64,000 bases of DNA from Alphaproteobacteria bacterium (GTDB lineage: Bacteria; Pseudomonadota; Alphaproteobacteria; UBA9655). The stretch is taken from positions 9,313 through 73,312 of the forward strand of contig JAKFXB010000124.1 of NCBI GenBank assembly GCA_021731585.1, given 5' to 3'. The position numbers were made by a program, and so were the translations under genes. Positions 52,722-53,908 of the stretch are shown piece by piece. The notes under the pieces were generated by a model, which worked only from the letters and a program-made list of their open reading frames with translations, ran no database searches and had not been told where the DNA came from. How positions within the stretch are numbered: position 1 is the stretch's first letter; every line of letters begins with the position of its first letter.

Positions 52722-52741
52722 AGATACTTTCTTTCTTATGA
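52678..52741. repeat. direct repeat A (ygfZ leader plus first 14 codons)
   Basis: 52678-52723 is identical to 53993-54038 (46 nt). Similarity continues imperfectly to 52741/54056. Confidence 0.95.
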
Positions 52742-53908
52742 TACAATCTCGCCAGCCCAAAGAGCTTGAAGAAAGTTTTCGATGGGCAGGATATCAAGCG
52801 TAAAATCTCCATCAATTATACGTCTAGGACGCAGAATTTGGCAAACCATTATGGATTTTTTAGGTTTATGTTCTTGGTGAAAGGCACGAAGTCCTTTCAA
52901 GTCTGATGATAATATCACATCAGAAATCTTAACTTCGAGGGCCACTTGACCGTTATTTAAAATAAAATCAACCTCCAGCTTGCTTTTGGTTCTCCAATAA
53001 TTAATTTCAAAATCTACTTCATTCAAGTATTTATAAGCCATCAATTCCGTGAGAATATAATGCTCAAGAGCTTTTCCGACTTCACTTCCTTTGAGGTCAG
53101 TAAATTGTTGATGTTTAATGAATGAGGCAAGACCAACATCAAACAAATAAAACTTTGGTGTTTCTGAGATAATGTTGCGACTTACTTTCTTCCGATAAGG
53201 CAGAATGATGTATCCCATCAAGGTATCCACCAAAATTTGGAAATATTCCCGAATTGTTTTTGCATCAATGCCAGCTTGGCGCGCGATGTTTGAATAATTC
53301 AGCATTTCCCCATTGGAAAAGCGAAGAGCATCAAAAAATCTAGAAAAAGCAGGCAAGTTGCGGACTATGCCTTCAGCCTGAATTTCAAGAATAAGATAAT
53401 CCTCGATATAAGAGCGGAATGACTTGCGATAATTGGGAGAGAGGTAATGAGATGGCAGGCCGCCCTGATTGAAGATTCGCAGAAGATCAAACTCATCAAA
53501 TTCAGGAAAGCATAAGGGAAAAAAATGATATTTCCAGGCTCTGCCCCCTAGCATGTTGACGCCATGGCGCTTCATTTGGCGTGCGCTTGACCCACAAAGG
53601 ATGAACTGGAATTCAGTATTCTCAATCAGCCAATGTATTTCATCCATAAGAGCAGGGACCTTTTGAACTTCATCAACGATCACAAGTTGATTGAGCGAGG
53701 TGTCCTGATGTTTAAGAAGTTCTTCACGAAATATAGAAGGCGCTTTTAAAAACTCAAGGGCTAGATCAGACTTTAAAAGATCATAGACAAGGGCCTTGGG
53801 GAAGGTATGTTTGAGGTAGGTTGTTTTTCCCGTCTTACGTGCCCCCCAGATGAAAGCCGATTGACGCTTTGGAAGATCAATTGTGAGGTATCTCTTTATG
53901 TAACTCAT
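52736..53908 (-). CDS. AAA+ P-loop ATPase with C-terminal DUF4143 / PD-(D/E)xK-like module (diverged paralog of 1433-2605)
   Basis: 390 aa with Walker A GARKTGKTT and Walker B LVIVDEVQ. C-terminal LEVDFI...ALEVK. The stop lies 14 nt upstream of the ygfZ ATG. Confidence 0.85.
   Translation of the reverse strand: MSYIKRYLTIDLPKRQSAFIWGARKTGKTTYLKHTFPKALVYDLLKSDLALEFLKAPSIFREELLKHQDTSLNQLVIVDEVQKVPALMDEIHWLIENTEFQFILCGSSARQMKRHGVNMLGGRAWKYHFFPLCFPEFDEFDLLRIFNQGGLPSHYLSPNYRKSFRSYIEDYLILEIQAEGIVRNLPAFSRFFDALRFSNGEMLNYSNIARQAGIDAKTIREYFQILVDTLMGYIILPYRKKVSRNIISETPKFYLFDVGLASFIKHQQFTDLKGSEVGKALEHYILTELMAYKYLNEVDFEINYWRTKSKLEVDFILNNGQVALEVKISDVILSSDLKGLRAFHQEHKPKKSIMVCQILRPRRIIDGDFTLDILPIENFLQALWAGEIVS

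What the first reader, a model, noticed from the sequence alone, without database searches (positions are those of the whole stretch)
52736..53908. Both cassette genes encode the same 390-aa architecture: P-loop ATPase plus a PD-(D/E)xK-like nuclease motif
Seen: 1433-2605 and 52736-53908 both encode exactly 390 aa. Each has Walker A (GPRQVGKTT / GARKTGKTT) and Walker B (LLIFDEIQ / LVIVDEVQ). Near the C-terminus each has an acidic residue followed about 15 residues later by E-x-K (EIDLVIDLGNQELWAIEIK / LEVDFILNNGQVALEVK). The two proteins are clearly homologous but strongly diverged, so these are two old or independent acquisitions rather than a recent duplication. Established, from memory: this is the AAA_14 + DUF4143 (COG1373) family. 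It is widespread, usually multi-copy and patchily distributed. It has no assigned function, and DUF4143 is grouped with restriction-endonuclease-like folds. Inference: an ATP-driven nuclease that is the sole cargo of repeat-bounded insertions could be a selfish homing-type gene or a minimal single-gene defence module that spreads as a cassette. I am not aware that mobility has been described for this family.
Basis: partly seen in the sequence, partly recalled or inferred. Interest (0 to 1): 0.75.

Follow-up and report, generated by a model that had tools for sequence, protein, structure and literature searches.

The report
Two ATPase-nuclease genes flanking ygfZ
Both genes are ordinary members of a very common, functionally untested ATPase-plus-nuclease family (a listed phage-defence candidate), and the repeats around them are duplicated ends of the neighbouring housekeeping genes, best explained by host recombination rather than by the genes moving themselves.

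Summary
Both ORFs are 390 aa and score above threshold for Pfam AAA_14 and DUF4143. They are 25% identical. Walker A, Walker B and the E…ExD…ExK nuclease residues are invariant across both subfamilies. A confident AlphaFold model shows an ORC/Cdc6- or STAND-like ATPase, a winged helix and an α-βββ-α-β C-terminal domain.

The family is already catalogued. Both proteins hit PADLOC PDC-S01, a candidate single-gene defence system. One homologue tested in E. coli gave no protection.

The repeats are real, but they are not element ends. Related genomes show the ancestral order AAA2→ygfZ→AAA1→←cdd.
- The 23-mer is the overlap of the convergent ygfZ and cdd 3' ends.
- The 64-mer is the ygfZ 5' end.
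- The 77-mer is the gene's own operator, present a second time in an ORF-deleted relic.
- Unrelated genes sit between the same duplicated ends in relatives, and one such pair differs almost only at synonymous sites.

This points to host recombination (homology-facilitated illegitimate recombination and unequal crossing-over).

New here:
- Each subfamily travels with a conserved palindromic operator.
- Flanking duplications occur at 10% of subfamily loci against 1.5% of other ORFs.

Self-mobility is not shown.

The parts
52736..53908 (-). AAA2: 390-aa protein with an AAA_14 P-loop ATPase, helical lid, winged helix and a DUF4143 PD-(D/E)xK-like domain. It lies 14 nt upstream of ygfZ.
   Evidence: The AlphaFold model has pLDDT 89.5. 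Catalytic residues are invariant.
1433..2605 (-). AAA1: 390-aa paralogue from a different subfamily (25% identity to AAA2). It is convergent with cdd.
   Evidence: Orthologues 90-92% identical lie between ygfZ and cdd in L171 and L174.
53905..53981 (-). B1: promoter/operator region of AAA2. It holds a 30-bp dyad AACTTTTAGGGAGTA|TACTCCTAAAAAAG plus an extra half-site. A -10-like TATACT lies in the dyad core.
   Evidence: Conserved with the ORF in unrelated contexts. The core GGAGTATACTCC occurs upstream of 43/76 subfamily genes against 2/704 control windows. Promoter scan.
54067..54143 (-). B2: a second, diverged copy of the operator (87% identical to B1). It belongs to an ORF-less relic cassette.
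   Evidence: The orthologous relic is present in L091 and L171.
54051..54072 (-). Relic of a deleted AAA2-type ORF: TTTTGATATCAAAAGGTCATAA, which is about the first 6 codons joined to the last 2 codons.
   Evidence: The same junction is found in L091 and L171. Compared with the ORF starts of L005 and the window.
53993..54056 (-). A2: upstream copy of TCATAA + RBS + the first 44 nt of ygfZ. It is a truncated pseudo-5' end, and its RBS variant is the one used by L091.
52678..52741 (-). A1: downstream copy, continuous with the intact ygfZ. The 46 nt that include the 44 coding nt are identical to A2. The RBS segment differs at 5 positions.
53982..53992 (-). x: the 11-nt junction (ATTGAAACACC on the minus strand) between the ygfZ 5' fragment and B1. 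The same junction occurs in L171, so it is ancient. ATTGA microhomology is present.
2607..2641 (-). Perfect 17+17-bp palindrome ending 1 nt before the AAA1 start codon. It is the operator-like site of the AAA1 subfamily.
   Evidence: The arms are conserved in L171, L174, L175 and L176, in different contexts. A related inverted repeat occurs in L189.
2649..2677 (-). R2: relic of the last ~27 nt of a ygfZ gene (..YIPDWMVI*) that once preceded AAA1.
   Evidence: In L171 and L174 the intact ygfZ ends with this sequence at the same distance from the palindrome.
1400..1428 (+). R1: the 3' end of cdd (..TTIQSGM*), which is the antisense of the ygfZ 3' end. R1 and R2 are the duplicated overlap of the convergent ygfZ and cdd genes.
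   Evidence: The undisrupted overlapping arrangement is seen in L094.
51912..51923 (-). AACTATGCAAAT directly after the ygfZ stop codon. These are the first 12 nt of the AAA1 upstream region, a relic of the former ygfZ→AAA1 adjacency.
   Evidence: compared.
51924..52721 (-). ygfZ-like (GCV_T / CAF17_C) core gene whose two ends supply the repeats.
984..1427 (+). cdd (cytidine deaminase) core gene, the convergent partner of the ancestral ygfZ.

Best explanation
Each gene is a self-contained, single-gene accessory module of the AAA_14-DUF4143 (PADLOC PDC-S01) family. Each module consists of a palindromic operator/promoter plus one ORF.

The protein has four parts: an ORC/Cdc6- or STAND-like P-loop ATPase, a helical lid, a winged-helix DNA-binding domain, and a C-terminal PD-(D/E)xK nuclease whose catalytic residues are intact.

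Inferred mechanism:
- The winged helix binds the dyad site that overlaps the gene's own promoter and represses it.
- ATP-controlled assembly on DNA licenses the nuclease to cut DNA.
- The most likely targets are invading DNA (defence) or some other non-self DNA.

The modules were acquired horizontally long ago, one at each end of ygfZ. The ancestral order was AAA2→ygfZ→AAA1→←cdd.

The flanking repeats are duplicated termini of the compact or overlapping core genes into which the DNA was inserted. I infer that they were produced and reshuffled by host recombination: homology-facilitated illegitimate recombination, then unequal crossing-over between filled and ORF-deleted alleles. I infer that they persist because each copy supplies a gene end. 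They are not the footprint of a transposition activity of the protein.
For: Shown — protein:
- Domains and family.
- Invariant Walker and nuclease residues across both subfamilies.
- Confident model: pLDDT 89.5 and pTM 0.90. It has ATPase, lid and wHTH domains; Foldseek matches NRC4, Apaf-1, Avs4/5, ORC1/Cdc6 and RuvB. The C-terminal domain has α-βββ-α-β topology, pLDDT 92.

Shown — operator:
- It travels with the ORF. DNA homology between unrelated contexts runs from about -75 to the stop codon.
- The dyad core occurs upstream of 43/76 subfamily genes against 2/704 control windows.
- The AAA1 subfamily has its own conserved palindrome.

Shown — horizontal spread:
- Homologues 80-84% identical lie next to pth, kdsB and EamA genes.
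- Relatives 50-66% identical occur in more than 10 phyla.
- GC3 is 0.31 and 0.38, against 0.42-0.47 for flanking core genes.

Shown — history of the repeats:
- L171 and L174 have ygfZ→AAA1→←cdd, with the ygfZ 3' end where the window has R2.
- The window's ygfZ is still followed by 12 nt of the AAA1 leader.
- L094 shows ygfZ and cdd overlapping with nothing between them.
- L091 has the relic without the ORF.
- L171 has the same A|x junction and the same ORF-deletion junction.

Shown — the process is generic:
- L092 (a SLFN_AlbA_2 gene) and L093 (a kinase-like gene) lie between duplicated ygfZ/cdd ends.
- In L092, 9 of 10 differences between the two repeat copies are at third codon positions. 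The two copies are therefore distinct functional alleles that were brought together.

Precedent: homology-facilitated illegitimate recombination is described in PMC3240628 and PMC5361080.
Against: Against the proposed function:
- No biochemical activity is known for any member of the family.
- The only reported phage test of a PDC-S01 gene was negative for T4, T5 and T7 (10.1101/2024.09.26.614923).
- Only about 10% of immediate neighbours of the subfamily are defence-like, so there is no defence-island signal here.
- Foldseek of the isolated C-terminal domain gave no significant PDB match. The best E-value was 0.05. Of the top hits, 9bgk_F (DdmD in the DdmDE complex), at probability 0.77 and TM 0.51, is the one I take to align to a nuclease domain (from memory; alignment region not checked).
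- Autorepression is inferred from the dyad sites alone.

Against the host-recombination account of the repeats:
- It does not by itself explain why flanking duplications are enriched at AAA_14-DUF4143 genes: 7/68 against 9/584 other ORFs, with two of those nine being further family members.
- The control set is mostly core genes, so recency of insertion may explain the excess.
Confidence: 0.6

Rival explanations
1. Selfish, self-propagating gene (homing-like). The ATPase-nuclease recognises and cuts alleles that lack the gene, or cuts nearby DNA. Repair from a cassette-bearing copy then installs operator plus ORF, sometimes with long duplications of the target.
For: - The mobile unit is minimal and has sharp limits: operator to stop codon.
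- Several copies occur per genome: two in this window, three in L042, two in L057, and two in L177-L186.
- The phyletic spread is extreme.
- Filled, relic and tandem alleles occur at one site.
- Flanking duplications are enriched about 7-fold at family members, Fisher p=5e-4. Of 16 repeat-flanked genes in the loci, 9 are AAA_14-DUF4143.
- The genes are usually wedged among housekeeping genes rather than in defence islands.
Against: - There are no terminal inverted repeats.
- Repeat length varies from 23 to more than 150 nt, and the distances from the repeats to the ORF also vary.
- About 90% of loci have no repeat.
- The same duplicated gene ends flank unrelated cargo.
- Repeat copies can be different alleles rather than fresh duplications.
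- Both window insertions are ancient and stable.
- The 'empty' allele L091 is an internal ORF deletion, not a precise absence.
Confidence: 0.13
2. The genes are passive cargo moved by an unlinked site-specific recombinase or transposase acting in trans. The direct repeats would be att-like or target-duplication sites.
For: - Direct repeats bound both genes.
- On rhizobial plasmids, AAA1-subfamily genes lie next to tyrosine integrases or Tn7-like genes.
Against: - The repeats differ at every locus and are made of host gene ends.
- They have no common core.
- No recombinase gene lies next to either AAA gene in the stretches examined (1-5000 and 50500-56000).
- Lengths of 23-153 nt fit no known transposase.
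Confidence: 0.04
3. A cellular DNA-transaction or regulatory ATPase (for example a repair, replication-control or transcription factor) with no role in conflict with mobile DNA.
For: - The ATPase + wHTH core is ORC/Cdc6-like.
- The neighbours are housekeeping genes.
- Both genes have been retained for a long time next to ygfZ in this lineage.
- The one reported phage test was negative.
Against: - Distribution is patchy, and close homologues sit in unrelated contexts across phyla.
- ORF-deleted relics are tolerated.
- There is no conserved gene partner: 80 other ygfZ loci lack the gene.
- Composition is atypical for the genome.
- The gene is embedded in known defence systems according to PADLOC's authors (10.1101/2024.01.29.577857).
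Confidence: 0.18

Closest known systems
PADLOC PDC-S01 (Pfam AAA_14 + DUF4143, COG1373)
   Same: - Full-length HMM matches: E=3e-46 for the second gene and 9e-86 for the first.
- Same two Pfam domains.
- Single-gene module.
- ATPase fused to a PD-(D/E)xK domain, as described in PMC12988326.
   Different: Nothing structural differs. These two copies lie among housekeeping genes rather than embedded in a defence system. No member of the family has a demonstrated function.
ORC1/Cdc6 initiators and STAND NTPases (Apaf-1, NLRs, Avs)
   Same: The order P-loop ATPase, helical lid, winged helix is shared. These are the top Foldseek matches, with E about 1e-5 and probability 1.0.
   Different: - TM-scores are low (0.2-0.4).
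- There are no sensor repeats (TPR, LRR or WD40).
- The effector nuclease is C-terminal and small.
- There is no Pfam NB-ARC or Cdc6 hit.
Free-standing homing endonuclease genes (for example the phage T4 seg and mob genes; from memory)
   Same: - A single nuclease gene with its own promoter is wedged between conserved genes.
- Presence or absence varies between relatives.
   Different: - The nuclease family differs, and an ATPase is present.
- No cleavage site is known.
- Insertions here carry duplicated host gene ends.
- The 'empty' allele is an internal deletion.
Insertions by homology-facilitated illegitimate recombination, with orphaned gene ends (Rhs and T6SS effector arrays; PMC5361080, PMC3240628)
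   Same: - Incoming DNA is anchored in a conserved gene.
- A displaced, truncated copy of that gene's end is left beside the cargo.
- The two copies are different alleles, as the synonymous differences in L092 show.
   Different: - Here the cargo is a single regulator-nuclease gene.
- The duplicated ends are retained because compact or overlapping core genes need them.
- The donor has not been identified.

Membership tests
Pfam AAA_14 + DUF4143 (COG1373) | Both HMMs score above their gathering thresholds, in the order AAA_14 then DUF4143 | tested here: met
   AAA_14 scored 73 and 92 bits (cut-off 27). DUF4143 scored 106 and 153 bits (cut-off 28.1).
PADLOC PDC-S01 | Full-length match to PDC-S01 HMMs as a single-gene system | tested here: met
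   PDLC04790 matched with E=3e-46 and 9e-86. Seven PDC-S01 models were hit by each protein.
PADLOC PDC-S01 | Confers protection against phage | not testable with these tools
   From the literature only. One PDC-S01 representative was not among the four protective candidates against T4, T5 and T7 in E. coli B.
PD-(D/E)xK nuclease superfamily | Conserved acidic residue in helix 1, D at strand 2, and (D/E)xK at strand 3 | tested here: met
   E282, E312-x-D314 and E325-x-K327 are invariant in 50 sequences from two subfamilies. They lie on H275-295, E312-317 and E322-326 of the model.
PD-(D/E)xK nuclease superfamily | α-βββ-α-β core fold similar to solved nucleases | tested here: inconclusive
   The topology matches (pLDDT 92). 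Foldseek against PDB gave no hit below E=0.05. Of the top hits, 9bgk_F (DdmD in the DdmDE complex; probability 0.77, TM 0.51), 6p4o (Bax1 endonuclease) and 9dou (R2 retrotransposon protein) are the ones I take to align to PD-(D/E)xK-type nuclease domains (from memory; aligned regions not checked). Clan membership is stated in PMC3424549.
P-loop / AAA+ ATPase | Walker A GxxxxGK[ST] and Walker B hhhhDE | tested here: met
   G22..G27-K28-T and D79-E80 are invariant. The fold matches RuvB, ORC1, clamp loader and STAND proteins.
Transposable element (IS or transposon) | Terminal inverted repeats and a fixed-length target duplication abutting conserved ends | tested here: not met
   No inverted repeats lie at the borders. 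Duplications range from 23 to 153 nt or more and lie at variable distances from the ORF. About 90% of loci have none.
Integron-type gene cassette | An attC-like recombination site shared by the cassettes | tested here: not met
   The repeats are locus-specific host gene ends. The only conserved non-coding element is the upstream operator.
Homing endonuclease gene | Precise presence or absence at one site among close relatives, with cleavage of the empty allele | tested here: inconclusive
   L091 lacks the ORF at the same site, but through an old internal deletion that is shared with L171. Cleavage is not testable here.
Defence-island resident | Neighbours enriched in known defence genes | tested here: not met
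   The 128 immediate neighbours of subfamily loci fall into 151 Pfam families, mostly housekeeping. Roughly a tenth hit PADLOC models. The window neighbours are glyS, cdd, ygfZ, merR and gap.

The most novel reading that the evidence does not exclude
AAA_14-DUF4143 genes, and perhaps the similar ATPase_2 and SLFN_AlbA_2 single-gene modules, may be minimal self-propagating elements.

On this reading, the ATPase-nuclease binds the dyad site next to its own gene and makes breaks. Those breaks drive copying or insertion of 'operator + ORF' into compact gene junctions, leaving long, variable duplications of the target.

That would make one of the most abundant 'defence candidates' in prokaryotes a new class of mobile gene.
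Probability: 0.12. Interest if true: 0.85.

Novelty: new member of a known kind. Interest (0 to 1): 0.42.

Why it matters
PDC-S01 (AAA_14-DUF4143) is reported as the fourth most common 'defence' call in prokaryotes (PMC12988326), yet it has no demonstrated function.

This locus and its relatives add four concrete handles:
- A conserved dyad operator that can be tested for binding and autorepression.
- Invariant catalytic residues to mutate.
- A natural series of filled, relic and tandem alleles at one site.
- A measurable excess of flanking gene-end duplications.

If the excess survives a proper control, it would bear on whether this family is immunity, a selfish gene, or both. If it does not, the locus remains a clear worked example of how single genes are lodged into overlapping core-gene junctions by host recombination.

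Tried and rejected
- Sequence search of PDB: no relative found.
- NCBIfam: no model matched.
- Rfam: nothing in the repeat regions.
- Flanking repeats at the closest AAA2 homologues (L005, L007, L008) and at plasmid or other AAA1-subfamily loci: none found.
- An identical protein in several contexts, tried with P0186 (listed on 60 contigs; 24 read): all ten places shown are one island in one organism.
- Filled versus empty comparison among Agrobacterium and Rhizobium plasmids. The left breakpoint could be placed near the DUF6428 3' end. No record joined both flanks without the gene.
- A functional link between ygfZ and the family: rejected, because 80 metagenomic ygfZ loci lack an adjacent AAA_14 gene.
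- The relic palindrome TTTTGATATCAAAA as a hairpin-excision footprint: rejected, because it derives from the first codons of the ORF (M-S-Y-I-K-R).
- A simple target-site duplication for the 64-mer: rejected. Its 5 mismatches cluster in the RBS segment, while the 46 nt that include the coding part are identical. The junction is also shared with L171.
- Codon-position test on the L069 and L055 repeats: not decisive. L069 gave 6 synonymous and 5 non-synonymous differences, and L055 had too few differences.
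Full report
OBSERVATION

Both ORFs exist as described: 52736-53908(-) and 1433-2605(-), 390 aa each. 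Each scores well above the Pfam gathering cut-offs for AAA_14 and DUF4143. NCBIfam has no model for them. The two proteins are 25% identical over 367 residues, E=3e-22, so they are old paralogues and not a recent duplication.

In a 60-sequence alignment of the second gene's subfamily, the Walker A and B motifs and E282, E288, E312, D314 and E325 are invariant, and K327 is nearly so. In a 50-sequence alignment that spans both subfamilies (about 23% identity between them), G27, K28, D79, E80, E282, E312, D314, E325 and K327 are all invariant.

STRUCTURE

An AlphaFold2 model built on the subfamily alignment is confident: pLDDT 89.5, pTM 0.90. The domains along the chain are:
- a P-loop α/β domain, residues 17-129;
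- a helical lid, residues 142-177;
- a helix-turn-helix with a β-wing, residues 185-255;
- helix 275-295, then strands 302-307, 312-317 and 322-326, helix 334-347 and strand 351-356. This is the α-βββ-α-β core expected of PD-(D/E)xK enzymes, and the invariant residues sit at the canonical positions.

Foldseek of the whole model finds STAND proteins (NRC4, WRR4A, Apaf-1, Avs4, Avs5), ORC1/Cdc6, RuvB and clamp-loader ATPases. E-values are about 1e-5 to 1e-3, but TM-scores are low.

The isolated C-terminal domain models at pLDDT 92 but gives no significant PDB match. The best E-value is 0.05. Of the top hits, 9bgk_F (DdmD in the DdmDE complex; probability 0.77, TM 0.51), Bax1 and an R2 retrotransposon protein are the ones I take to align to PD-(D/E)xK-type nuclease domains; that reading is from memory and the aligned regions were not checked. 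The nuclease fold is therefore supported by motif, topology and the published classification of DUF4143 (PMC3424549), but not by a decisive structural match.

WHAT IS ALREADY KNOWN

Both proteins match the PADLOC models for PDC-S01, with E=3e-46 and 9e-86. PDC systems are untested 'phage defence candidates' found by guilt-by-embedding (10.1101/2024.01.29.577857). PDC-S01 is described as an ATPase fused to a PD-(D/E)xK domain and as the fourth most common defence call in prokaryotes (PMC12988326). One PDC-S01 representative was tested in E. coli B against T4, T5 and T7 and was not among the four protective candidates (10.1101/2024.09.26.614923). The 'minimal single-gene defence module' idea is therefore already in the literature and remains unproven. 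I found no paper describing mobility of the family. COG1373 does appear in a list of genes shared between gut genera (PMC10782964).

THE REPEATS IN THE WINDOW

Three direct-repeat pairs flank the two genes. Apart from a 74%-identical pair at 3237-3358 / 6396-6517 and two 78%-identical pairs of 23-27 nt, they are the strongest short-range repeats in the window. Comparison with relatives shows what each pair is.

Site 1 (AAA1):
- Orthologues 90-92% identical, in an alphaproteobacterial MAG (L171) and in a read-archive assembly contig (L174), lie in the order ygfZ→AAA1→←cdd←glyS.
- There, the intact ygfZ ends with …CCCTACATCCCCGATTGGATGATTATTTAA, ten bases before the AAA1 palindrome.
- The window has the same 27 nt at the same position (R2, 2649-2677) but no ygfZ body.
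- R1 (1400-1428) is the 3' end of cdd, which is the antisense of that sequence.
- In a more distant relative (L094), ygfZ and cdd are convergent with overlapping ORFs and nothing between them.
- The 23/29-mer is therefore the duplicated overlap of two convergent core genes. Each copy now serves one gene.
- The window's own ygfZ, 49 kb away, is still followed by AACTATGCAAAT, the first 12 nt of the AAA1 leader. A rearrangement therefore separated ygfZ from AAA1 in this lineage.

Site 2 (AAA2):
- Read in the direction of transcription, the window has: merR, hairpin, B2, ORF relic, RBS2, 44 nt of ygfZ (A2), an 11-nt junction x, B1, the AAA2 ORF, RBS1, then ygfZ (A1 onward).
- B is the gene's own upstream region. 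It is conserved with the ORF in homologues 80-84% identical that lie next to pth, kdsB or EamA genes. In those comparisons, DNA similarity starts about 75 nt before the ATG and stops at the stop codon.
- A metagenomic relative whose ygfZ is 87-88% identical (L091) has only merR, hairpin, B2, relic, RBS2 and an intact ygfZ.
- L171 has a decayed ygfZ 5' fragment, the same junction x, a shortened B, the same ORF-deletion junction, RBS2 and ygfZ.
- The insertion into the ygfZ 5' end, with its duplication of at least 44 nt, and the later ORF deletion are therefore both old and shared.
- The window's tandem 'relic + full copy' is what unequal crossing-over between a relic allele and a filled allele would give, using the duplicated ygfZ 5' end as the substrate.
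- This also explains the uneven similarity: the 46 nt that include the coding part are identical, 5 differences cluster in the RBS segment, and the B copies are 87% identical.

IS THE REPEAT A PROPERTY OF THE GENE OR OF THE INSERTION PROCESS?

I scanned one genome per species for relatives of AAA2 and obtained 80 loci at 50-82% identity. They come from Alpha- and Gammaproteobacteria, Melainabacteria, Omnitrophota, Planctomycetes, Chlamydiae, Acidobacteriota, Bacteroidota, Patescibacteria and others.

Best ungapped repeat between the two 400-nt flanks:
- Score of 18 or more in 7 of 68 testable loci, with lengths 31-153 nt and identity 80-95%.
- Against the same geometry at shifted positions, the 99th percentile was 15 (n=357).
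- Against real ORFs in the same and the ygfZ loci, 9 of 584 reached 18 or more (Fisher p=5e-4).
- Of those nine, two are further AAA_14-DUF4143 genes, one is an ATPase_2 gene, one a SLFN_AlbA_2 gene and one an IS200-like gene.

Where they can be read, the repeats are ends of neighbouring genes:
- L069: the 5' end of the downstream gene, as in the window.
- L068: the 3' end of the upstream gene.
- L055: the 3' end of a convergent gene.

Their lengths and their distances to the ORF vary. There are no terminal inverted repeats, and about 90% of loci have none.

At the ygfZ/cdd junction, unrelated cargo is also bounded by duplicated ygfZ/cdd ends: a SLFN_AlbA_2 gene in L092 and a kinase-like gene in L093. 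In L092 the two 127-nt copies differ at 10 positions, 9 of them third codon positions (8 synonymous, 2 non-synonymous codons). Both copies therefore evolved as working genes before being brought together. That is what one-sided homologous integration of donor DNA produces (homology-facilitated illegitimate recombination; PMC3240628, PMC5361080). A fresh target duplication would not look like this. The same test on L069 is only suggestive (6 synonymous, 5 non-synonymous).

OTHER CONTEXT

- Immediate neighbours of the subfamily fall into 151 Pfam families, mostly housekeeping. About a tenth hit defence models.
- The family is almost absent from sequenced phages: 5 weak hits in 50,697 records.
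- It is present on 326 of 72,556 plasmids.
- AAA1-subfamily genes at 56-60% identity are common on Rhizobium and Agrobacterium plasmids, sometimes beside tyrosine integrases or Tn7-like genes.
- GC3 of the two window genes (0.31 and 0.38) is below that of the flanking core genes (0.42-0.47).

A NEW, SOLID FEATURE: THE OPERATOR

- The AAA2 subfamily carries dyad-symmetric sites built on GGAGTATACTCC within 120 nt of the start codon. The core (up to 2 mismatches) is present in 43 of 76 loci against 2 of 704 control windows. A -10-like TATACT lies in the core.
- The AAA1 subfamily has a different palindrome, TATGCAAAT…ATTTGCATA, abutting the start codon. Its arms are conserved in unrelated contexts.
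- From this I infer that the winged helix binds these sites and autoregulates the gene.

CONCLUSION

The two genes are ordinary members of a known, abundant and functionally untested family. The nuclease and ATPase motifs are intact. The genes were acquired separately and long ago, one at each end of ygfZ.

The repeats record how DNA was lodged into compact or overlapping core-gene junctions and later reshuffled by host recombination. They are not evidence that the protein moves its own gene.

One thing remains unexplained and is worth a controlled survey: the excess of flanking gene-end duplications at this family and at similar single-gene ATPase modules. It keeps a selfish, homing-like reading alive at low probability.

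Noticed in passing
window 2649-2677 and 51912-51950: Both sides of a ~49-kb stretch (tRNA-Gly … rpsB/tsf/pyrH … a kinase-like ORF) carry a copy of 'ygfZ 3' end + start of the AAA1 leader'. The two copies are only about 70% alike in the ygfZ part. This suggests a rearrangement or large insertion that split the ancestral ygfZ→AAA1 pair.
   Followed up: partly
L092:4663-6643, L093:4819-5990, L094:4825-4906: The ygfZ/cdd junction is a variable hotspot in this alphaproteobacterial clade. It is empty with overlapping ORFs in L094, holds a kinase-like gene in L093, and holds SLFN_AlbA_2/HATPase_c_4 plus an HTH gene in L092. Where it is filled, duplicated gene ends flank the cargo.
   Followed up: partly
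window 49860-50894 (+): A low-GC (0.355) 344-aa ORF. Its N-terminal region, read by eye, resembles the kinase-like gene inserted at the ygfZ/cdd junction in L093 (Pfam Pkinase, E=3e-8). It may be a secreted effector-type kinase of an intracellular bacterium.
   Followed up: no
L042:3649-4857, 5811-6968, 11078-12370: Three AAA_14-DUF4143 genes lie within 17 kb of one Pseudomonadota MAG contig. Two of them are flanked by direct repeats (38 and 79 nt).
   Followed up: partly
L177-L186 (one organism seen in many samples): An island with two AAA_14-DUF4143 genes separated by a SLFN_AlbA_2/HATPase_c_4 gene. The same two families also share the ygfZ/cdd hotspot.
   Followed up: no
L069:5706-5744 versus 7024-7062: A 39-nt copy of the AAA gene's 3' tail plus the first 5 nt of the flanking repeat sits just upstream of the operator. 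It looks like a relic of an earlier cassette or of a tandem or circular junction.
   Followed up: partly
window 2607-2641: On the + strand, the AAA1 palindrome followed by GTTGTTTTTA scores as an intrinsic terminator (16-bp stem). It could also stop antisense transcription coming from cdd.
   Followed up: no
L188 (NZ_CP024313.1) and hits H65, H73: On rhizobial plasmids the AAA1-subfamily gene lies directly downstream of a tyrosine integrase. In one case it is beside TniQ, TniB and Mu-transposase genes. It may be cargo of larger elements there.
   Followed up: no
window 3237-3358 and 6396-6517: A 122-nt direct repeat at 74% identity, 3.2 kb apart. One copy lies at the start of the MFS transporter gene. 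This may indicate a paralogous second transporter.
   Followed up: no
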